Shown here: positions 1,418 to 63,155 of the stretch, piece by piece
Layout: every line of letters starts with the position of its first letter
Numbering within the stretch: position 1 is the first letter of the stretch
Source: Flaccisagitta enflata
Lineage: Eukaryota
Direction of reading: 5' to 3'
NCBI GenBank assembly: GCA_965153355.1
Contig: OZ231126.1
Coordinates: 43,462,001-43,526,000 of the forward strand
DNA: 64,000 bases
Made by a program: the position numbers and the translations under genes
The notes under the pieces: generated by a model
The model's input: the letters and a program-made list of their open reading frames with translations, nothing else
Databases searched by the model: none
What the model was told of the DNA's origin: nothing

Positions 1418-1821
1418 CTTGACTTGGTTCTGCAATTGGAGGAGCCGAAATAAACAACAAAGGATACAAGGTAAGCATTCATTCGATTATTTTTTTTTTC
1501 ACCTGAGTCAAATGTCGCCGTCTTACAAAGTTTTGTAAGACGGCAAAACATATAGTTTGTGACTTTTAACACTCTCTATGACGTTTTCCACCGACTTACA
1601 ATCGTCTATAAAACAACCATCTGGAAACAACCGACTTACGACAATTTCTAAGACTGTGACTCAAGACCATCTAAAAACCACCGACTGAAAATCATTTGCA
1701 AGACAGTAACATGTCTTATAATCTAAACAATTGTTCGTTTTTCTCTCGTTTTCCCTTTTTTCACTTTCCACACTTATCCACTCTCCTTACCTTTCCTACT
1801 TTTCTTTTTCTATAGACTTAC

Positions 1822-2741
1822 ATGCCAATAGGGAATAAGGACAAAAGACCCCTCTATCATTCCCATATATATTTTTCGGCCTTTGCTGAAAGCCTAGTCA
1901 CAAATCGACATCTCCGTAAACTCTTATTAACTATTGACAAAATGGTGCTTAATTCCGAGGGTCCTCCCACTAACTCAAAATTTATTTTAGACCCGGAGGA
2001 GAATGTTTTATCACCGACAGCGACACTCGGCTTAGAATTGGTTAAGGATCGTATCAGAGATGAACAGAATGAGTTAACCATGGGTGGGAATAATTCTGTA
2101 AAGGGAGTTGTTCGAACGGGGAAGATAAGGGCAGCAGCTTGTAATGTTTCTGAACTGAAAGAAATAAGAAAAAAAATTGTGGATATTTTTAAGATCGCTC
2201 TTCCAAGCGAGGTTATTAATCAAAAGGTTCTTCATAACTTTAGCTTTACCACAGACACATCTATCTTAACGGCTCTGTCAGAAAAACACAATAATACCAA
2301 GGCAAACGCGGTTGGGTTTGGGACTGCACACCATCTCCAACATTTCTTACTGGCAAACAGTAGCAACCTAAAACAGGAACCCTGTCAACTACGACACACA
2401 CCAACCTTCTTCATCTCAATCCTACAATGCTGCAATTCAATTCTCGCCCCTTCCCCCCAACACTATCTAAGAAAGGAATGGAAAGAGTATCGTAATGCGA
2501 CCCCTCCTCCATTTCCCAAGTCACCTTCCAACCCACAACAGCATGCCATTAAGACGGAACGCTTACAAGGTCAGAGAGAACGGGTGCTAAAAAATTTAAC
2601 TCATTTGATGGAGAAGAAACCTCACACCATTTCACTAGAACAATACGCATCCTCCGATTGGAGAACATCACCTCTCACTACCACTTTTGATAAAAAAGAA
2701 GTAGCGAAGCTAGAGAAACTCGCATCCTCATTCAACACCCC

Positions 2742-2808
<67 letters not shown>

Positions 2809-4172
2809 GAAACATCAACAGCTTCAGATCCAACAGTCGGTTCCGGTGGTCACCCTGTGTACACCAACTGTTTCTACTGTCCGCCGTTTATCCATAAACC
2901 TAAAAACGAGTCAGCCGTCTCCGTAAACCATTTTTCGTGATCTGTTGCATCCCGCAGTTAACATCCATCGGCTGCTTGTCAAAACTTCGCTCCATCAAAC
3001 ATTGGAACATTTCGAAAAGTTCCACTCTGAACGTTCGAGTTCAAGAGTCAAAAGTGGGCATGGTTTGATTCTCCCATGTGCAATCTGTAGCAGATACGTC
3101 ATGGAAGGGAAGGAGGAGTACCGTTTTTCAATGTATGCGTGTTGCTTAGAGGACCTGAAGGACCACTGTCTCCTCATGCACCATGAAGACAACTTATTAT
3201 ACCATCTTTACGTCTCCATAAGAAGGATGATTGTACAGGAAAACATAATGATAGATTTAAAACTTGTGGATATGTACTTGTTAGTGAAGTGCCCAATGTG
3301 CAATATGAATTTCCTTTCACAAGCTGCAGTCAAAATCCACGAAAAGCTATGTTTAAGTAAATTTGTCACCTCCTGCGCCTTTTTTGGCAACCGTCTTGCC
3401 AACAACGTTTTCTCCTGCAAATACGTCAAAGAGAAATCTGAAGAGGAAGATCAACTGCACGCGATCAATCAAGCATCCCTCTTCCTAAAACGCGCATCCG
3501 CATCTTCGTCTTCCAAGGATTCAGCAACTACATCAGCAACAACTACTGCCACTTCAACAACTTCGACAGTAACATCAACAACGATCAAAACTAACAAAAC
3601 CTTTGAACAATACCTCTCAAAAACTTACGGAGAATTCTTGCTAAAGAAATCAAGCCCCTCAAAACACTCAAAACATAAGCACAAGGATGGGACATCAAAG
3701 CTGACCACGACCTTCGTGGAACAAGAATCAACCCCAAAAATGAAAAAACCTCCACCACACACAACCAGTCGGAAAAAAGACAATCCGGCAAAAGCGTTTT
3801 TAGACTCCGAAGCAATTGAGGTGAATCTCCACTCACCTGACAAGAAGATCCAACGAAAGAAAATGAAAAATAAATCCAAGAGCGAAGGGGTTGGCGGAAA
3901 AAACTGTGATGAAATGGAGAATCGCAAAAAAGAGAATAATGACGAAAAACGCCATCTAAAGAACAAGGAGAAACACAAAGGGGAGGAAGAGGAGAAAAAC
4001 CAAAAACGGAACGCGAATGGCGAGGAGGAGGACAAGGAAGAGGAGGAGGAGGCGTCGAGAAGAGGAGGAGAAAAGACACATAGGAAGAAAAGACCCCACA
4101 CTGAGAAACAAAAAGAGGAGAAAGCAAGGAATGATGGGAGAAACAAAAGCGGAAAAAGAAAGAGTCGGGATA

Positions 4173-4214
<42 letters not shown>

Positions 4215-4628
4215 TTGATGACGTCACAAGTAGAGGCAAGCCCAATGGCAATGGCAATGGTGACAACAGATGCATTGTGATTGAGGGTGATAGTGATGAC
4301 AACAACATTCATAGCAGTTACAAGCACAAAAATGACACTGATAACATGGATGTTGAGGAGGAACATACGGTTAATGATACTGATGATGATGGAAAACAGA
4401 ACTCTGCTGCGGATGATAATGATAGTGATGGCGATGATGACAATGAGGGTGCTGACAACAACACTGATGGAGATGACAATGATGATGGTGGGGGAGATAT
4501 TGACAACAATGATGACGATGACAGTGACGATGATGACGGTGACAGTGACGATGATGACGATGATGACGATGGTGATGATGCTGATGACGATGATGGTGAA
4601 AGTGATGACGACGATGATGATGATGATA

Positions 4629-4664
<36 letters not shown>

Positions 4665-5198
4665 CTGATGATGACAACGATGATGGCGATGCTGGAGATG
4701 AGGGTGATGATAATGATGATGATGATGATGATGATAAAGAAAACGATCCTAACCACCGCCAACGCTCTATTAAGAAGAAGAAACGCGTTCGCTACGCTTT
4801 GTCAACTAGTTCTGACAATAACAGCTCTAACAATTCATCCTCGGAGGAGGAGGAGGAGGAGGAGGAGGAGGGGAAAGGAGGAAGGGAAGGAGGATCTGTC
4901 ATCTTCATCCATGCTTGATACTATGTCAAGTAGCTACTCATCCATAGGTGTGTTAAAGTCTAAAAAAAAATTGAAAGGAAAACATACTGAGGAGCACAAA
5001 CCTGTAAAAAAAAGGAAGACCATCATACAGAGTAAAAACAAAAAAAAAGGTTCTCAGCTGAAGAAAAAAGCCAAAATCATTTCTTCTTCTTCTTCCTCCT
5101 ATTCTTCTTCTTCTTCTTCTTCTTCTCCCTCTTCTTCTTCTTCTTCTTCCTCTCCCCGCATCTCAGCTAAAAAACAGAAAAAGAACCACAGGCGATAA
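1822..5198 (+). pseudogene. Large ORF (about 1,120 aa reconstructed): unknown N-terminal domain, poly-Q tract, Cys/His zinc-finger-like cluster, Lys-rich and very long Asp-rich tail; split by two +1 frameshifts
   Basis: ORF 1822-2940 joins ORF 2945-4918 if one T is removed from the T run at 2931-2935 (NHFRDLLHPAVN). A second +1 shift near 4871-4876 joins the end of ORF 4281-5198. Motifs: CFYC..NHFRDLLH, CAIC, DHCLLMHH, CPMC..HEKLC. A splice acceptor TTTTTCTATAG ends at 1815, just before the ATG. Confidence 0.65.
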
Positions 5199-5316
5199 TG
5201 AAGGATAAAGGTTATAATTACAACTTCCTTTTCACTTTATTCCCCACCACCCTACTACACCTCTTACTGTAAAAAAAAAAGCTTTTTTTTTATCTCTTTT
5301 CTTCTATCTTTCCTCC

Positions 5317-5321
<5 letters not shown>

Positions 5322-5392
<71 letters not shown>
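5322..5392. repeat. (CA)n microsatellite
   Basis: Direct sequence. Confidence 0.95.
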
Positions 5393-5395
<3 letters not shown>

Positions 5396-5599
5396 TCAGA
5401 TTGTGACGAACTTCTTTCACCGTAAAGCAACATTGTTCCAACACATTATGGCAACTATGTTCATTGTAAAATTGTCTCGTTGATTCCAACTTTCCTTTTC
5501 TATATGTTGTATTTCTATTTGTCTATTATGATTTCTTTTTCTCCTGTTGCCCAATCAAAAAAAAACAGAATAGATAAAAATATTAAACCCCCAAAAGTG

Positions 5600-5676
5600 T
5601 GAGTTCCAACACTTCTCCTCTCCCCCCTCCCAACCTATGGGGTGGGGGGGAGGGGGAGGGGTGGGATTGGAACTCA
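5600..5676 (+). promoter_or_regulatory. Hairpin with G-quadruplex-type G tracts just upstream of the pPolB start codon
   Basis: TGAGTTCCAA (5600-5609) pairs with TTGGAACTCA (5667-5676). A C-rich arm faces GGGG-T-GGGGGGG-A-GGGGG-A-GGGG-T-GGG. The ATG is at 5700. Confidence 0.5.
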
Positions 5677-5699
5677 AAGAGAAACACTTAATCTTGAAT

Positions 5700-8600
5700 A
5701 TGTTCCACGAGGATGACTTGGACTACTTAGATGAAAATTCTTTGATAATCCATCAAACAATCACTGACGATTTCTACGCTGGTGAGCAAAAAATTTTTTG
5801 TATATTTTTTTTTTCTTTTTTGCATTTTTTGCATTTTTTCTCTTATAGAACTATGAAATATCATATTCTTTCTTCCCTCAATTCTTACATTTTCTTTTTT
5901 AATGCTGCTTCTATCAAAATACTTTGGATTTAAGGATTGTCTGCGAAAACAATATTCCAACGTGCCCCCCATGAAACTTGGAAATCCTATCTCCCGGAAA
6001 CTGAGATCTTTATATATCATAACTTCTACATGCGTCCCACACTATCACAAATTCTTCAACCCGGCAAAGAATACCTAATTTTCCTCTCGGCTGAAATAGA
6101 GTTTCATAAACTAACAGATATAAATGATAAAATGTCAATTTTTTCATCGTATCGGAATCAAAGATGGATATCAGTGGATCACAACTCTTTAGCTGTATCA
6201 AATAGATATGCTGACGAAATGCTGACAAACTTTAGCATCCAAATTATGTCTGACATTGATTCAGTTCAAAATAAAAAAGAATCGGGTTGGGTTTATGAAA
6301 AAGTCATCAAAATGTCAATAGTGAAAATTGAACGCAATATATTACTCGGACCGAGTTTTGGAGCCACACCACGCCGAAACAAAAAACCATACTCCTTTAA
6401 CAAACATTTTCAAACTACTTTGAAAACATCAAACTTGCGTATTCCTGATAACTACATCCCATACTCTTTCTCAAAGCATCCTAACATCTGCATCCCTCTC
6501 GCCATTGTCATTAAATTGGAACACATCAGGGCCGGTGGATCATTCAACATAAAGACATTTTCTCTCAAAAGAATAGCCTCTGCTCTCCATAATCTACGCT
6601 TTAAAGAACTTCAAACTGTTGAAAACGATTTTAAAATTTACAAAAAAGACCTCCCCAAACTAGAGGAAATAAATAAGGGTTTTGGGGAAGCACTCAAACA
6701 ACAATACCCTTTTCTTCGATTATATGACGGTTTCAGTCTTAATATGTATAGGGTTTTAGGCTTATATGAGACACATAAAGGCGGTACTGTTCGTTTAACT
6801 ACCTCACATCTTTTGGAAAATTGGAATTCGTCAAAATTCCTACAAATAGATTTACTCGACGCGACTGATATCCTAGACCCTCCAGTCACAGACCATGTTC
6901 TAATAATTCTAAACTATATCCAACTTGTCAGTCACAGAAAGGACACTCGCTACAAACATGCTTGTCGAGCATGCCAAAGACTTTTTTCGAAATATGACTC
7001 CTTTCTAAGACATATCACTGAAATTTGCTCCCCCTCTCCAACAGCCCCAAGACGTGCTAAAAACTTCATCCTTCATAAAACTTTCATCAAGGACAAACAA
7101 ACCGGGAAAAAAAAACCTCACACCGTTTCTTTTCAACATAGACAATATCACAAGACATTCCAGAGCCTGGTTTATGGAACCATGGATCTAGAAAGTACAA
7201 ACAAAACCATGGAGGCCGGCCTTTTTCATAAAAAACCCCCTTCATCCTCTATTTTCTATCAAAAACCATTTGCATTCAGCTTATGTTACACCACTCCTTA
7301 CAACATACAACTCCCAGACAATCTTAACAATATCACAATTAAGTTCTATGACGAGCGTCATACTACCCTAGACACCTTTTATTTGTCGATCCTTACAACA
7401 TTAAGACAAAATGCCGCAGATGTGAATAAATTCATATTCAACACAATTACTCAAGATAACGGACCACCCAACTTATCCTCTCTATCCAAGGCCGACAGAG
7501 AAGCCTACATGAAAGCGAGTTCGTGCAGTTTTTGTGGTAGAAAATTCAACTCCAAGATAAGATCAAAAAAGAATAAGAATTTATTTTTCACTCTCCGAAA
7601 GGTAAAACATCATAATCACTTTATCAAAGTTCCCAACCTCGCCAAAAAAGGAAGTATTAGTGAAGACAATGGGAAAGACAGACATGAAGTAATTGTCCTT
7701 TGCTCCGGTTGTAATGTGAACACATACCAAAGTGGTTTTCTCACTAAAAACGATCTACGAATTGGGATTCACAATGGCGGAAAGTACGATTTTATTTTCT
7801 TGTCGGACATGGTCTCTAGAGTGGGCCATACACCATTTAAACAAATTGATAAAAATGGTCAAGAGATCACCTTACCATTAATCAAAGGGGATGTTCAAGT
7901 ACTATGCAAAGATAAAAACAGTTTTTTGCAATTAAGCCTACGCTTCAACTGTGACCATTTATCCACTTGTCCCTACCATTCACAAAACAACCTTTCATCC
8001 ACCCACACAAAAAAAAACCGTTGGAGTTCCTGCCCTTACGAGAAGAGTGTTACCTTTTTTGACACAGCCATGATGATAACTGCCAGCCTGGATGGTATGT
8101 TACAAGATGTGAGAAATATACACGAGGGAGTCAAGGATTTACGTTTAGTCTTCCCTCGCACACACCATTTTATAACCTCTCAAATGGGATATAATGAGGA
8201 AGTTTTTTCATCCGTTCTTTGTAAAAAAATACCTCAACCTTTTGAAAAAATTGATTGTCTCCAATATGCTCTAGACATGAAAGAACCTCCACCGGTTTCT
8301 CATTTTTTTTCCCGTCTTAAAGGAGATGCGTTGACAGGGGAACCTAGCATCTCGGAGGAAAGTTACAATGATTTCGTTAGCATTTGGAGACAAATTGGCG
8401 CAACTAATTACTTTGACGTTCTCGTGCTTCATTCCGGAGCCGACTCCACCATTCTCGCCGACGTGATTTCATTTTACTACGGTGAAATCTTTAGAGTGAG
8501 CGGACTATCCGCAATCGAATTTGTTACGTGTGCGTCAATTTCTTACCAATCGGCGTTACTAAACAGTAAATCCCCATACAACGCAAACGAACCTTTACAG

Positions 8601-10736
8601 CTACATGTACCTAATCGTAAGATTCATGATATTTACGCTCTTGGGTTACGAGGAGGCTACGCATTTGTAAATGCCAATTATTGTGAGTTCCGACATCTTG
8701 AAGTCAATCGGACAAACTCTGTCCCTAGAAACATGATAAAACAACTGTCTTTTGAAGATATTAATGGTCTCTATGCTTCTTTACTCAAACAAAGAATTTC
8801 TATTGGTGATTATGTATTCTATTCCCGCCGTCACAACAAACAGCAGTTTGACTTTCTTAGCCGGCAGTTGCTCTCTATGAATATCGATTTTTTTTCCAAT
8901 GAAATGCACATGAAAAATCACTTATTTTTCTTTGTCGTGATCTTGACTTATGACGATGACGCTTTATTTGCATCCCAAAATTTTGACTTGAGCTTTTTCC
9001 CCTTTTACGATACAATATCTCTCGACATGTTATCCCCACACCAAAGCGCACGTGCTCAACGTCTCAAACGCGATCCCGGGAGAGAATCATGCCAACTTGT
9101 TAGTTACTTAAAAAGAGGTTTAAAGACGGCGGATTATGCAGAAAACTTGATTTATCAATTATCATTCCACAATTGCAGAATTTCTTGTGTGGTTAAGATT
9201 GTGCGCTCAACTGCTTTTCCAGTGTTTAACCCTTGGCTTTCTCGATTAGAGACAGAAAAAAGACGTAATATATCTCCCATTCTTAACAAGCTTTGGAAGC
9301 AGTTTGGCAATAATATCGCGGGATACACCCATCAACGACTCAATGAACGCGTCAGTGCCAAATTATGCCTATCCAAGGCTTCCTTTGTTAGACACACTAA
9401 TTCTGAACACTTTTTCGACTTTACATTTATCAACGAAAATGCTTGCTTACTAACTTTTGATCATAAATCTATTGTAAGTAGAAATCTTCCCGCTATATCA
9501 TCACGCACTTATAGTTCTGCGAAATTATTCATGTGGAGAATGTACCACACTTTAGCTGCAAGATTTTACTTTTTTGGAGGGTATGGCACTCGAATTCTGA
9601 TGAGTGATACTGATTCCTACGCTGTCTCGATGCTCACTAAAAAGTGTGATTACACTTTTTTTTTTTTATAAGAACCAAGTTTATAAGAACGTTAGGCTTC
9701 AAAACGTTAAAAATTTAAGAACATGCTAAGAACATTGGAAGGCTTCATTTTTTCCAAAATTTAAGAACATTAGGCTTAAGATCTTAAAAATTTAAGAACA
9801 TTTTTTTCCTGTGCTTTTCTTAATCAATTGTACCTTGTCAATGGATAGACTATGTATCTTTTATATTGAGCAAATCATGTCTCACTTTAAATAGCGTATA
9901 TTTTTCTACTTTCATTGATCTTAAAACACTTAAAACATTTAAATCTGCTAGTTTGTTGTTTCATTGATATTTTCCTTTATTTTCTCCTTTATGACAAACT
10001 TAAAACTAATTAAGAACGTTCTTAATTGAAGGTTAAAAATGCGTTTAAATTAAGAACAATTTAAGAACGTTCAAGCCTTGAAACTGCTCAAAATTTAAGA
10101 ACATTGAAGGCTTGCTCAAAAAATGACGTTCTTATAAAAAAAAAAAGTGTATATGCTTGCTGAGGCGGAAAAAGCAAAGCAAGCAGGTCTATCTCACCTC
10201 CCCTTCTCTTCGTACACCTCCTGATTTATAGCAAATGCATGCCTGAAAACAATGGCACCATTTTTAGACTTTTCATGTATCAATCCTGATTCTCACATTT
10301 ATCAAACTTTTTTTGCTGATAGTACACCCATGCAAAAGGCCTGTGCAACCTTAGCTGAAAACAGACGATCTCAATCCTTCTATATTAAATCTGAGATCAA
10401 CAACAAACAAATGGAAATGTTTTTAGCCGCCTCAGCTAAATGTACATGATAGTAAACAAAGACTTGTCACCCTCTTTGATTAAAGCAAAAGGTTTGAAAC
10501 GAGGGCTCATTTCTAAAGTGATTGACACTGCCCATTTTATAGATGTGGCAAAACACGAAAAACCTTCAAAAACAGTACAACAATATAACTTAAAACGCAT
10601 GAACGGCACCATTTTTCTACATTCTGTAAAACGTAGAGCCTTAACACTTTTCACCAGTAAACGTATCATGGATCCGACTTATTTCCAACCAGGATCCCAT
10701 TTTGGCTATCCTCTCCATTTTAAACCTTTCATGTAA
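5700..10736 (+). pseudogene. Protein-primed family B DNA polymerase (pPolB, Polinton/Maverick-adintovirus type), about 1,460 aa reconstructed. Exon 1 5700-5781, intron 5782-5934, exon 2 5935-10736, disrupted by a MITE, a TGA and a frameshift
   Basis: Motifs: ESGW (N-terminal region), OTU-like Cys (NICIPLA) and His (DHVLII), zinc finger CRAC..HITEIC, ExoI MDLES, EndoVII/HNH-like insert CSFC..HHNH..CSGCN, ExoII HNGGKYD, GLRGG, motif A EDINGLY, motif B KQFGNNIAG, motif C SDTDS, and C-terminal KSE..SAKMY..KAKGL..KR in ORFs 10252-10449 and 10440-10736. Confidence 0.9.
9653..10149. mobile_element. Tc1/mariner-type MITE inserted in the pPolB coding sequence
   Basis: TIR CACTTTTTTTTTTTTATAAGAAC / GTTCTTATAAAAAAAAAAAGTG, TA duplication at 9651-9652 and 10150-10151. 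A second copy lies at about 62813-63155. Confidence 0.9.

Positions 10737-10926: not shown

Positions 10927-10984
<58 letters not shown>
10927..10984. repeat. (CA)n microsatellite
   Basis: Direct sequence. Confidence 0.95.
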
Positions 10985-10988
<4 letters not shown>

Positions 10989-25101: not shown

Positions 25102-25777
25102 CTAGACCTTATCCTTTTGGGCTCCATTCACAATTCTTCCCTCCCCATCGGCAGTTTTTCGGCACCATCTGGCCTCTTCACTCGCTGCAAGGTTCTGCGA
25201 AATGGCATGTTATTGCATGACTGAAATATGAAAGATTGTACCTGCTTGGACCGAGGAATTCGACAATCGTTTTTACAGCATATGATCACGATGACAACGA
25301 GAACTAAAGCACAGCTCATAAACAAAATCATCCATGCGCGTATAGGGCCGAAAACCTACGAAAGAAGAAATGATACAATCAATCAATAATGGCGAGAAAA
25401 AAAAATTATGAAACAGCAACAATATATCCATTATTGGGAAAAAACTCGAAAAACGTTTTTCGATTTTTGAGTTTCGCTAAAGAATTAATTTTTTCCATTT
25501 TTGCTTGGGGCGTTTTGAGAAAGTTGGGGAGCGACTAGGCACGCCCTAGGCTGGGGTTGAAATTGATACAGGGTTAAAGAGGAAATTATTTTACACCTTC
25601 TTGAACAAAACAGAGCAGATCAATATTTTTCGAGTTTTTACGATTTTTTTCCGGACGGCAATAGCCGCCATTATTGGTACTCATTACCTTGTCTTCCCAT
25701 GAAAATTCCTTTTCTTCATCGAAAAATGGCGTCAGATCACTCGGATCCCAGGTAACAGGCGCCACTGCAAAGGACAT
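25102..25777 (-). CDS. TMIE: TMIE-like (transmembrane inner ear expressed) small membrane protein; exons 25777-25688, 25355-25242, 25194-25102
   Basis: Spliced product MSFAVAPVTWDPSDLTPFFDEEKEFSWEDK-VFGPIRAWMILFMSCALVLVVIVIICCKNDCRIPRSKQ-NLAASEEARWCRK..DKV*. It matches the TMIE pattern RxW-TM-CC-x3-CR(I/V)PR(S/T)K. Both introns are phase 0. A further 5' exon is possible. Confidence 0.7.
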
Positions 25778-33290: not shown

Positions 33291-36868
<3,578 letters not shown>

Positions 36869-50197: not shown

Positions 50198-58010
<7,813 letters not shown>

Positions 58011-62812: not shown

Positions 62813-63155
62813 ACTTTTTTTTATAAGAACGTCATTTTTTGAGCAAGCCTTCAATGTTCTAAATTTTTGGGCAGTTTCAACGCTTGAACGTTCTTAAATT
62901 GTTCTTAATTTAAACTCATTTTTTAACCTTCAATTAAGAACGTTCTTAAATAGTTTTAAGTATGTCATTAAGGAGAAAATGAAGGAAAATGTCAATGAAA
63001 CAACAATGTACCAGATTTAAACATTTTAAGTGAATTAAAATCAATAAAAGTAGAAATAAAATATGCTATAAAATGTTTTTAGAATGTTCCTAAATTTTTG
63101 ACGACTTGAAGCCTAACGTTCTTATAAACTTGGTTCTTATAAAGAGAAAAAGAGA
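62813..63155 (-). mobile_element. Internally deleted inverted copy of the MITE that interrupts pPolB
   Basis: Reverse complement of 9653-10149 (TATAAGAACGTCATTTTTTGAGCAAGCCTTCAATG ... TTATAAACTTGGTTCTTATAAA). Confidence 0.9.

What the first reader, a model, noticed from the sequence alone, without database searches (positions are those of the whole stretch)
5700..5936. pPolB appears to contain a spliceosomal intron
The 1244-aa ORF has no ATG at its start. An upstream exon, ATG 5700 to 5781 (MFHEDDLDYLDENSLIIHQTITDDFYA), ends at G/GTGAGC. A 153-nt T-rich intron ends at TTTAAG (5934), and the join G+GA is in frame with the polymerase. Spliced polymerases are known in adenoviruses but are not the usual Polinton arrangement.
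Basis: partly seen in the sequence, partly recalled or inferred. Interest (0 to 1): 0.72.

Follow-up and report, generated by a model that had tools for sequence, protein, structure and literature searches.

The report
Likely intron in a protein-primed polymerase gene
A virus-like DNA polymerase gene lodged in a marine animal's genome seems to carry its start codon on a tiny first exon, 153 bases upstream of the main reading frame; relatives support an intron there, but no spliced RNA has been seen yet.

Summary
ORF 5934-9671 has no ATG at its head. ATG 5700 opens 27 codons ending G|GTGAGC. 153 T-rich bases end TTTAAG at 5934, and G+GA restores the frame.

Comparison favours a real GT-AG intron. 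Six distant homologs (26-40% identity) have uninterrupted ORFs carrying the exon-1 motif directly before G-x-x-S-K. The window's in-frame translation shows a 51-codon insertion exactly at 5782-5934. A profile of their pre-Gly block finds 5721-5777 as best hit in the six-frame window (E 0.0018, next 0.45). Six distinct closer relatives lose similarity at the same Gly, always after Lys, with F/L/S/C/P-rich upstream sequence.

Splicing itself is not shown. Contigs of three RNA libraries run unspliced through 5934/5935, and no 5781^5935 joint appeared.

The protein is a protein-primed family-B polymerase: the nine best fold matches are phi29 polymerase. "Polinton" is unsupported, as no integrase, capsid, ATPase or protease domain was found. 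The window copy is broken near its 3' end. Probability of a real intron: about 0.7.

The parts
5700..5781 (+). Proposed exon 1: ATG, 27 codons (MFHEDDLDYLDENSLIIHQTITDDFYA) and the first base of a split Gly codon. It carries the family's conserved N-terminal motif.
   Evidence: sequence, translation; it aligns to the contiguous N-termini of six distant homologs, and the profile hit at 5721-5777 has E 0.0018; a second copy (P0160) is identical over these 28 residues.
5782..5934 (+). Proposed phase-1 GT-AG intron, 153 nt, 53% T. Donor is G|GTGAGC and acceptor is TTTAAG|GA. A TTAAT branch-like site lies at 5899-5903 (read by eye). The stretch is in frame and open except for TAA 5931-5933.
   Evidence: it equals the 51-codon insertion relative to six homologs; 4 substitutions and a 2-codon indel in 49 codons in P0160, against 0 in 28 for exon 1; no Rfam self-splicing intron match. 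Removal from RNA was not observed.
5935..9650 (+). [quoted passage not shown] It holds an N-terminal 400-aa region, Exo I (7182-7196), a Cys/His HNH-like block (7524-7727), Exo II (7770-7802), Exo III (8430-8465), Pol A (8757-8786), Pol B (9297-9326) and Pol C DTDS (9600-9620).
   Evidence: motif places; the motif consensus is recalled; the fold of 7134-9650 has pLDDT 76 and the top 9 PDB matches are all phi29 DNA polymerase, E 1.2e-8 to 3e-6. PF03175 in 4 of 25 homologs.
9651..10149 (.). MITE-like insertion with 19-nt perfect terminal inverted repeats and a TA duplication. It interrupts the polymerase ORF just after the DTDS motif.
   Evidence: arms 9657-9675 / 10128-10146; a second copy at 62815-63151 on the minus strand, 90-91% identical; joint 9650->10150 in DNA run X1 (depth 13) and in X11, so copies without the insertion exist as DNA. 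P0003 reads straight across.
10150..10736 (+). Remainder of the polymerase coding region (C-terminal about 190 residues). In this copy it is broken by an in-frame stop at 10222-10224 and a one-base frame shift near 10437.
   Evidence: (sequence) compared with the intact 1433-aa relative P0003. tables 3 and 4: other copies differ at these two places.
5600..5676 (.). C-rich/G-rich hairpin (36-nt arms, 75% complementary) 24 nt upstream of ATG 5700. It could be promoter or 5' UTR; its function is unknown.
   Evidence: I1; only sub-threshold miRNA-precursor-like Rfam matches, best 33.9 bits against a gathering score of 63.
5321..5393 (.). (CA)n microsatellite on the left of the polymerase unit. A matching (CA)n lies at 10927-10985 on the right, in the same orientation.

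Best explanation
[quoted passage not shown] The gene belongs to a repeated, virus-like element in the nuclear genome of a marine animal. A 82-nt first coding exon supplies the start codon and a conserved acidic N-terminal motif (L-D-x-x-S-L-x-I-x4-T-D-D-F-Y). The host spliceosome joins G(5781) to GA(5935), giving ...TDDFYA-G-LSAKTIFQR..., which is the arrangement that distant relatives encode without interruption. The intron appears to have been gained inside this family, because it is shared by the clade down to about 44% identity. Shown here: the anatomy, the homology of exon 1, the exact fit of the gap, and the polymerase fold. Inferred: that the intron is actually removed from RNA, that ATG 5700 is the start used, and that the closer relatives keep an upstream exon too. 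This copy cannot make a full polymerase, because its 3' part is broken by a MITE, a stop and a frame shift.
For: (1) Anatomy. G|GTGAGC is the donor, and a T-rich body (53% T against 29-30% in the exons) ends in AG|G. Only 1 of the 6 possible GT..AG pairs keeps the frame.
(2) Distant homologs. I fetched 10 homologs, chosen from the 150 listed because their match starts at query residue 9 or earlier. Six of them (P0034, P0048, P0093, P0104, P0138, P0018; 26-40% identity) have one continuous ORF with the block ...L[DN]xx[ST]LxIxxxxTDDx[FY]x directly before G-x-x-S-K-x-x-F. The window's in-frame translation aligns to them with a 51-residue insertion equal to 5782-5934.
(3) Profile test. A profile of only the 26 residues before that Gly, with the window excluded, was searched against all 2484 six-frame pieces of the window. 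It hits 5721-5777 best (E 0.0018, next 0.45).
(4) Closer relatives. 14 closer polymerases were seen (P0003-P0010, P0021, P0161-P0165). Seven, with 6 distinct N-termini, extend upstream of the Gly. All 7 have Lys just before it, where the window and P0160 have TAA. Further upstream all 7 have F/L/S/C/P-rich sequence unrelated to each other or to exon 1. None of the 14 carries the exon-1 motif contiguously. Long intact ORFs (up to 1433 aa) in this clade argue that the interruption is tolerated.
(5) A second copy, P0160, has exon 1 identical in 28 of 28 residues. The intervening part has 4 substitutions and a 2-codon indel in 49 codons.
(6) The first 31 residues of the ORF (LSAKTIFQRAP...) are conserved and fold into the N-terminal domain at pLDDT 87-97. 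The start must therefore lie upstream of 5937, and no in-frame ATG without a stop exists there except through exon 1.
(7) The host splices canonical GT-AG introns, as the PP1 gene junctions show.
Against: No spliced RNA was seen. Contigs of three metatranscriptome libraries, all from one study, cover 5831 onward and run unspliced across 5934/5935 into the ORF (X11 record 8, X12 record 16, X13 record 24). No joint 5781^5935 was listed in any of the 4 runs laid. These are assembled contigs, which drop rarer forms, and the libraries may hold DNA or antisense RNA. This is therefore weak but real counter-evidence.

The acceptor has A at -3 (AAG), the least favoured of the common forms (recalled). 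The intervening stretch is open in frame for 50 of its 51 codons. I estimate about 7% by chance from its base composition, so read-through coding in an ancestor is not excluded.

I could not see the DNA of any relative. The upstream exon and GT..AG in the closer clade are therefore untested. It is also unknown whether the six continuous homologs come from genomic DNA or from cDNA.
Confidence: 0.7

Rival explanations
1. Transcription starts inside the intervening sequence, at about 5810-5831. Exon 1 is then a relic or belongs to a rarer alternative transcript. The polymerase would be made from this shorter RNA by an internal or non-AUG start (TTG 5937, or Met 33 at 6030), possibly after the 26-codon upstream ORF ATG 5853..TAA 5933.
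For: RNA-library contigs in 3 of 3 RNA runs include 5831-5934 joined to the ORF. A TATA-like TATATTTT at 5801-5808 lies about 30 nt before 5831 (read by eye; the spacing rule is recalled). ATG 5853 is in frame with the polymerase.
Against: From such an RNA the first AUG (5853) ends at TAA 5931-5933, both in the window and in the RNA contigs. X12 record 16 differs from the window only at 5945. Starting at Met 33 would delete 31 conserved residues that form the first strand and helix of a confidently folded domain. An unused exon 1 should have decayed since the clade diverged (44% identity), yet it keeps its ATG and the family motif. The three RNA runs belong to one study, the contigs carry 6-21 unplaced letters at that end, and their strand is unknown.
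Confidence: 0.14
2. There is no splicing. The 153 nt are a dead insertion or an expanded T-rich tract in a decaying pseudogene family, and the GT/AG ends are coincidence.
For: The window copy is certainly a pseudogene at its 3' end, with a MITE, a stop and a frame shift. Only unspliced contigs were seen.
Against: Relatives of 44-69% identity break off at the same Gly codon while keeping ORFs of 1100-1433 aa. Exon 1 is conserved against distant homologs and is identical in a second copy whose intervening part has changed. The insertion begins and ends exactly at the only frame-keeping GT..AG pair.
Confidence: 0.1
3. The stretch is read through rather than removed. This could be by reading TAA as sense (another genetic code or stop read-through), giving a 51-residue insert, or the stretch could be a self-splicing intron.
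For: The stretch is in frame and has a single stop at its very end.
Against: 1245 codons of the ORF hold no TAA, TAG or TGA under the standard code, so a reassigned stop is unlikely. The insert is absent from six homologs and unlike in the others. Rfam gave no group I or II match in 5200-6200 at E up to 1, and 153 nt is too short for such introns (recalled).
Confidence: 0.03

Closest known systems
Adenovirus E2B mRNAs for DNA polymerase and pTP
   Same: A protein-primed family-B polymerase of a nuclear DNA virus has its coding body joined by the host spliceosome to short upstream exons. [quoted passage not shown] That the main adenoviral pol ORF lacks its own start codon is recalled, not checked here.
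   Different: Here there is one 153-nt intron and one 82-nt coding exon right next to the ORF. There are no shared leaders kilobases away, and no pTP gene or other viral gene was found nearby. Sequence similarity to adenoviral polymerase was not tested.
Introner-bearing eupolintovirus (Maverick/Polinton-like) elements of dinoflagellates (PMC12166617; abstract and passages)
   Same: Integrated Polinton-like elements, pPolB-encoding ones included, carry spliceosomal introns acquired after integration.
   Different: Those introns are copies of multi-copy introner transposons. The 153 nt here has no second copy in the 64-kb window and no terminal repeats or duplication that I could see. The host here is an animal, not a dinoflagellate.
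Polinton/Maverick pPolB (Pfam PF03175, DNA_pol_B_2)
   Same: It shares the protein-primed B-family fold and motif order. PF03175 is matched by 4 of 25 homologs. The nearest Atlas clusters carry PF03175 in 27-35% of members and are mostly eukaryotic, with Arthropoda commonest.
   Different: The window protein itself has no Pfam match. No rve integrase, capsid, ATPase or protease domain and no TIRs were found. A Polinton is defined as a 15-20 kb element with pPolB plus RVE integrase and TIRs (passages of PMC5718144).
phi29 DNA polymerase (PDB 1XHX, 2PYJ, 2EX3)
   Same: It is the best structural match of the modelled 7134-9650 region. The top 9 chains are all phi29 polymerase (E 1.2e-8 to 3e-6, TM 0.40-0.48 on the target, 637-679 aligned columns).
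   Different: Identity is 8-10%. There is a 400-residue N-terminal extension and a Cys/His block between Exo I and Exo II. Sequence and profile searches did not reach phi29.
HNH-bearing pPolB2 of nematode and oomycete Polintons (PMC10748475, passages)
   Same: A Cys/His (C-x2-C ... HHNH ... C-x2-C) block sits inside the polymerase (7524-7727). The Atlas neighbours carry PF02945 Endonuclease_7 in 16-31% of members.
   Different: This is only a lead. Pfam finds Endonuclease_7 in 1 of 25 homologs (E 0.0062) and not in the window's own block. The relation to pPolB2 was not tested.

Membership tests
Spliceosomal U2-type GT-AG intron | GT at the 5' end within a donor-like context, and AG at the 3' end | tested here: met
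   G|GTGAGC at 5781/5782 and TTTAAG|GA at 5934/5935.
Spliceosomal U2-type GT-AG intron | Pyrimidine-rich 3' part and a branch-point-like site 18-40 nt before the AG | tested here: inconclusive
   The stretch is 53% T overall. TTAAT at 5899-5903 lies 32 nt before the AG, read by eye against a recalled YUNAY consensus. The last 20 nt are not strongly pyrimidine-rich, and no scoring model was available.
Spliceosomal U2-type GT-AG intron | Removal restores a reading frame whose product is collinear with uninterrupted homologs | tested here: met
   The 51-codon insertion sits exactly at 5782-5934 against six continuous homologs. It is the only frame-keeping pair of 6.
Spliceosomal U2-type GT-AG intron | Exons conserved, intron body not | tested here: met
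   In P0160 there are 0 changes in 28 exon-1 residues, against 4 changes plus a 2-codon indel in 49 intervening codons. Six distinct upstream sequences in the closer clade are unrelated to each other. The numbers are small and rest on protein-level data only.
Spliceosomal U2-type GT-AG intron | Spliced junction present in RNA | tested here: not met
   No 5781^5935 joint appeared in 3 RNA-library runs and 1 DNA run, and the RNA-library contigs bridge 5934/5935 unspliced. Only contigs could be laid, not raw reads, and contigs can hide a rarer spliced form.
[quoted passage not shown] | Exo I-III and Pol A-C motifs in order | tested here: met
   MDLES 7182, HNGGKYDFIFL 7770, a Y/H-x3-D block at 8430, DINGLYASLL 8757, KQFGNNIAGY 9297 and MSDTDSY 9600. 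The consensus motifs are recalled, not taken from a tool.
[quoted passage not shown] | Fold closest to a known protein-primed polymerase | tested here: met
   The top 9 Foldseek PDB matches are all phi29 polymerase (E 1.2e-8 to 3e-6). The next matches, other B-family polymerases, have E of 0.0086 or more. The model has pLDDT 76.
[quoted passage not shown] | Match to Pfam PF03175 | tested here: inconclusive
   The window protein and P0003 have no match. 4 of 25 homologs match, best E 4.2e-7.
Polinton / Maverick | rve-type integrase beside the pPolB | tested here: not met
   No rve hit was found. The scans covered all 91 ORFs of 75 aa or more starting below 33 kb, and 19 of the larger ORFs beyond 33 kb. 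An integrase split by introns or decayed beyond Pfam's reach would be missed.
Polinton / Maverick | Terminal inverted repeats, and capsid, ATPase and protease genes in a 15-20 kb unit | tested here: not met
   No long inverted repeats bracket the gene, and there were no such Pfam domains. Capsid genes are poorly covered by Pfam, so this test is weak.
Introner (intron-generating transposon) | Many near-identical copies of the intron sequence elsewhere in the genome | not testable with these tools
   No whole genome is held. There is no second copy in the 64-kb window.
Group I / group II self-splicing intron | Match to the RNA family models | tested here: not met
   No such match was found in 5200-6200 at E up to 1.

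The most novel reading that the evidence does not exclude
The gene may not be part of a Polinton at all. It could be the sole gene of a compact, roughly 5-kb repeated unit found in a marine animal and in ocean metagenomes and RNA libraries. The unit would encode a 1460-residue polymerase fusing an OTU-like/zinc-finger N-terminal region, an HNH-like block and a phi29-type polymerase. Such a unit might copy and insert itself without an integrase. It would have become dependent on the host spliceosome, through an intron gained within the family that holds the start codon apart from the ORF and may house a second, internal promoter.
Probability: 0.15. Interest if true: 0.75.

Novelty: new member of a known kind. 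Interest (0 to 1): 0.45.

Why it matters
If the intron is real, automatic gene calls for this whole polymerase family are wrong at the 5' end. All 14 close database proteins start at arbitrary codons or inside intron read-through, and the conserved acidic N-terminal motif has been missed. It would also show that a virus-like replication gene in an animal genome is expressed through nuclear splicing, as adenovirus polymerase is. That speaks to where and how such elements are transcribed. Because distant relatives are uninterrupted, the family offers a datable case of intron gain in a mobile element. The finding itself is modest. Introns in integrated Polinton-like elements are already documented, and splicing is not yet proven here.

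Tried and rejected
RNA test.
- No joint 5781^5935 was listed.
- In X12 and X13 nothing was laid on 5628-5830 beyond the 4-nt overlap of the contigs that begin at 5831. X11 had low depth there. Parts without cover prove nothing with contigs.
- The three RNA contigs that begin to fit at 5831 come from one study and carry 6, 21 and 6 unplaced letters, which the output did not print. I therefore do not count this as a mapped RNA end.
- An antisense RNA captured through its A-rich tract, DNA in the libraries, or an assembly break in the polymorphic T-run could all give this picture.

DNA of relatives.
- IMG/VR scan with the N-terminal 321 aa: 22 pattern matches, none confirmed.
- JGI metagenome scan with a 7-row N-terminal alignment: 294 pattern matches, none confirmed.
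- As a result the GT..AG, the upstream exon and the predicted AAA Lys codon in relatives could not be checked.

Sequence-only classification.
- Pfam on the window protein gave no match.
- phmmer against PDB found 0.
- A 25-row profile against PDB gave a best E of 0.029, which is unrelated.
- Pfam on the Cys/His block and the zinc-finger stretch gave only sub-threshold zinc-finger hits.

N-terminal 399 aa fold (pLDDT 88.6).
- Foldseek's best match was E 3.1e-3, to the Y-family polymerase little-finger region.
- VIA-align wide gave Z of 7.9 or less for residues 1-135 (little-finger-like) and Z 4-5.3 for residues 145-347 (many OTU proteases). These are within the tool's stated background and are leads only.

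Earlier scan notes: none for this genome or sequence.

Literature.
- Searches 'polinton, intron, polymerase' (130 papers, 20 listed), 'maverick, polinton, introns, spliced' (13), 'polintons, exons, protein-primed' (7) and 'ppolb, spliceosomal' (5) were run.
- I read passages of PMC12166617, PMC8502044, PMC10748475, PMC12220804, PMC2646287, PMC6431247, PMC4028283 and PMC5718144.
- None of these gave a statement on a spliceosomal intron splitting a Polinton polymerase gene, apart from the introner study.
- Kapitonov & Jurka 2006, the 2024 MMBR review and Krupovic & Koonin 2015 are not held. I recall, unverified, that early Polinton descriptions drew some genes with introns, so I do not claim novelty of the principle.

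Considered and dropped.
- A U12-type intron, because the donor is not of that type (recalled consensus).
- An acceptor at 5848, which gives an immediate stop.
- A ciliate-type genetic code, because the ORF has no in-frame stops.
Full report
**1. What is in the sequence.**

The stop-to-stop ORF 5934..9671 on the + strand has 1245 codons and starts G-L-S-A-K-T-I-F-Q-R (GGA TTG TCT...). Its first Met is residue 33, at 6030.
- Upstream, ATG 5700 opens MFHEDDLDYLDENSLIIHQTITDDFYA. Base 5781 is G, and GTGAGC follows at 5782.
- The next 153 nt are 53% T, against 29-30% T in both flanking coding parts, and end TTTAAG at 5934.
- Between 5703 and 6030 there are two GT donors and three AG acceptors. Of the six pairs of 40 nt or more, only 5782..5934 keeps the frame from ATG 5700 open.
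The only stop between them is TAA 5931-5933.

**2. What the gene is.**

Pfam and PDB sequence searches find nothing for the window protein, but the family is large. A full HMMER pass over 1.84 billion representatives gave 431 proteins at E of 0.001 or better and 54 at 1e-30 or better.
- PF03175 (DNA_pol_B_2) is matched by 4 of 25 aligned homologs, best E 4.2e-7.
- An AlphaFold model of 7134-9650, built with a 45-row alignment, has pLDDT 76. Its nine best PDB matches are all phi29 DNA polymerase (E 1.2e-8 to 3e-6). Other B-family polymerases follow at E of 0.0086 or more.
- The Exo I-III and Pol A-C motifs stand in order (the consensus is recalled).

"Polinton" is not supported. No integrase, packaging ATPase, protease or capsid domain was found.
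- The scans covered all 91 ORFs of 75 aa or more starting below 33 kb, and 19 of the larger ORFs beyond 33 kb.
- No terminal inverted repeats bracket the gene.
- A Polinton is defined by pPolB plus RVE integrase, TIRs and 15-20 kb (passages of PMC5718144).

The neighbours are host genes:
- a PP1 phosphatase about 95% identical to vertebrate PP1, split by canonical GT-AG introns;
- a TMIE exon;
- an NDUFV2-like exon.

The host is therefore most likely an animal. The stretch is found in marine metagenomes and metatranscriptomes: 20 of 24 listed runs hold part of it, across 9 studies.

**3. The window copy is broken at its 3' end.**

An intact relative, P0003, is 98% identical and 1433 aa long. 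It reads ...DTDSYAISMLTKKCDYMLAEAEK... and continues to ...HFKPFM. In the window three things break this.
- A 499-bp MITE-like element sits at 9651-10149. It has 19-nt perfect terminal repeats and a TA duplication, and a second copy lies at 62815-63151. It follows ...KKCDY.
- The continuation 10150-10736 carries an in-frame stop at 10222-10224.
- There is a one-base frame shift near 10437.

Copies without the MITE exist as DNA: the joint 9650->10150 has depth 13 in run X1.

**4. Evidence that 5782-5934 is an intron.**

(a) Distant homologs. From the 150 best hits I fetched the 10 whose match begins at query residue 9 or earlier. Six of them have a single uninterrupted ORF in which an exon-1-like block runs straight into G-x-x-S-K-x-x-F-x-R. 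They are P0034, P0048, P0093, P0104, P0138 and P0018, at 26-40% identity.
- P0034 reads ...FFDGLDETSLRIISRTTDDLFTGTASKQVF.
- P0104 reads ...VPSDLLEIVRSLEDDFFVGTMSKYVF.
- The window reads DYLDENSLIIHQTITDDFYA | G | LSAKTIF.
- Of the other four, P0012 and P0073 start downstream, P0023 has 15 unrelated residues upstream, and P0021 belongs to the interrupted clade.
- I aligned the window's in-frame translation of 5700-6300, with X at the stop. It shows one insertion against these six, and that insertion equals 5782-5934.

(b) Profile test. I built a profile from only the 26 residues upstream of the Gly in those six proteins and searched all 2484 six-frame pieces (102,591 residues) of the window. 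The best hit is 5721-5777 at E 0.0018, and the next is 0.45.

(c) Closer relatives. 14 closer polymerases were seen (P0003-P0010, P0021, P0161-P0165; 43-98% identity).
- Seven, with six distinct N-termini, extend upstream of the Gly: ..GIKKG, ..ENQKG (twice), ..STIKG, ..SILKG, ..GKSKG and ..PTSKG.
- All seven have Lys before the Gly, where the window and P0160 have TAA. This fits a conserved ..AAAG|G acceptor read through by a prokaryotic gene caller.
- Further upstream they are F/L/S/C/P-rich and unrelated to each other.
- Three start at the residue after the Gly (probably TTG or GTG called as a start, as in the window, where that codon is TTG), and four start further in.
- None has the exon-1 motif contiguous.
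- Similarity thus stops at the same codon in lineages that keep ORFs of up to 1433 aa.

(d) A second copy. P0160 is a 75-aa ORF on another contig. It is identical over the 28 exon-1 residues but has 4 substitutions and a 2-codon indel in the 49 intervening codons. It ends at the same TAA.

(e) The head of the ORF. The first 31 residues of the ORF are conserved and form the first strand and helix of an N-terminal domain modelled at pLDDT 87-97. Translation must therefore begin upstream of 5937, and only exon 1 offers an ATG that reaches it.

(f) Conservation argument (inference). The interruption is shared down to 44% identity. An unused exon 1 should have decayed in that time, yet it keeps its ATG and the family motif.

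**5. Evidence against.**

I could lay only assembled contigs, once (RNA libraries X11, X12 and X13 from one study, and DNA run X1; 90% likeness).
- No joint 5781^5935 was listed.
- One contig in each RNA library fits from 5831 onward and runs unspliced through 5934/5935 into the ORF: 651, 165 and 1201 nt. X12's contig differs from the window only at 5945, so it carries the TAA and the TTG.
- Contigs drop rarer forms, their strand is unknown, and the tool warns that DNA may be in RNA libraries.
- Splicing is therefore neither shown nor excluded, but the unspliced form is what was seen.
- The acceptor AAG is a weak form (recalled).
- The intervening stretch is open for 50 of its 51 codons. From its composition I estimate about a 7% chance of that.
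- I saw no DNA of any relative.

**6. Mechanism proposed.**

Transcription starts upstream of 5700. A C/G-rich hairpin at 5600-5676 and A/T-rich sequence lie there, but nothing about the promoter was tested. The host spliceosome removes the phase-1 intron. Translation from ATG 5700 then gives a polymerase of about 1460 residues in intact copies.

The anatomy, the homology and the fold are shown. The splicing and the start site are inferred. I put this at 0.70.

Rivals:
- an RNA start inside the stretch with a downstream or non-AUG start codon (0.14);
- a dead insertion (0.10);
- read-through or self-splicing (0.03; Rfam found nothing).

**7. Comparison with what is known.**
- The nearest working parallel is adenovirus. 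Its protein-primed polymerase and pTP are made from spliced mRNAs with short upstream exons (passages of PMC11304566).
- Spliceosomal introns inside integrated Polinton-like elements are documented for dinoflagellate introners (PMC12166617, abstract and passages).
- Four literature searches and eight papers read in passages gave no other statement on an intron in a Polinton polymerase gene. Three key papers are not held. I do not claim the principle is new.
- I rate it a new member of a known kind.

**8. Verdict.**

The intron interpretation is well supported by comparison but unproven by RNA. The Polinton label is unsupported, and the copy is defective. Interest is moderate, at 0.45.

Noticed in passing
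window 9651-10149 and 62815-63151: A MITE-like element (19-nt perfect TIRs, TA duplication, internal TTTAAGAAC-type repeats) sits inside the polymerase gene, with a second copy on the minus strand. Its sequence is far more abundant in the laid runs than the polymerase: summed depth is 1,590-10,723 in bin 9561-9767, against 2-20 elsewhere. Summed contig depths are only a rough guide.
   Followed up: partly
window 5782-5933: The proposed intron is in the same frame as both exons and open for 50 of 51 codons, with its only stop (TAA) as the last codon. An in-frame ATG at 5853 would give a 26-codon upstream ORF ending right at the polymerase ORF. This may be chance (about 7% by composition) or a trace of an alternative intron-retaining product.
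   Followed up: partly
window 5321-5393 and 10927-10985: (CA)n microsatellites in the same orientation flank the polymerase unit. The fit of metagenome contigs to the window ends near 5404 and 10916. ENA contigs holding close relatives are 5072 and 5079 nt. Either the repeated unit is about 5 kb, or assemblies simply break at the microsatellites.
   Followed up: partly
window 10790 -> 5283 (table 5c): One DNA contig of run X1 (depth 2.1) joins 10790 back to 5283 with 34 other letters between. This would mean head-to-tail copies or a circle, but it is a single low-depth contig and may be an error. Another contig joins 5287 to 6127 with 13 letters between (depth 2.4), as a 5'-shortened copy would.
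   Followed up: no
window 5600-5676: A C-rich/G-rich hairpin (36-nt arms, 75% complementary) lies 24 nt before ATG 5700. Only sub-threshold Rfam miRNA-precursor matches were found.
   Followed up: partly
window 5937-7133 (N-terminal 399 residues of the polymerase): This region folds confidently (pLDDT 88.6). Residues 1-135 resemble the little-finger domain of Y-family polymerases (Z 7.9 or less). Residues 145-347 resemble OTU cysteine proteases (Z 4-5.3, many entries). A C2H2-like zinc finger follows at 6963-7028. All matches are within the tools' background range.
   Followed up: partly
window 7524-7727: A Cys/His block (C-x2-C ... HHNH ... C-x2-C) sits between Exo I and Exo II and looks HNH/endonuclease VII-like. 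Atlas neighbour clusters carry PF02945 in 16-31% of members. Pfam does not match the window's own block and matches only 1 of 25 homologs.
   Followed up: partly
window 1816-5198: Overlapping ORFs upstream encode a protein with C2H2-like motifs, a poly-Q run and a very long Asp/Glu-rich tail. There is no Pfam match. Whether this is a host gene or part of the element is unknown.
   Followed up: no
window 34156-36868 (-), 25131-25355 (-), 57504-58007 (+): Host genes are present: a PP1 catalytic subunit about 95% identical to vertebrate PP1 with a 1.7-kb GT-AG intron, a TMIE exon, and an NDUFV2-like (2Fe-2S thioredoxin-like) exon. These point to an animal host.
   Followed up: partly
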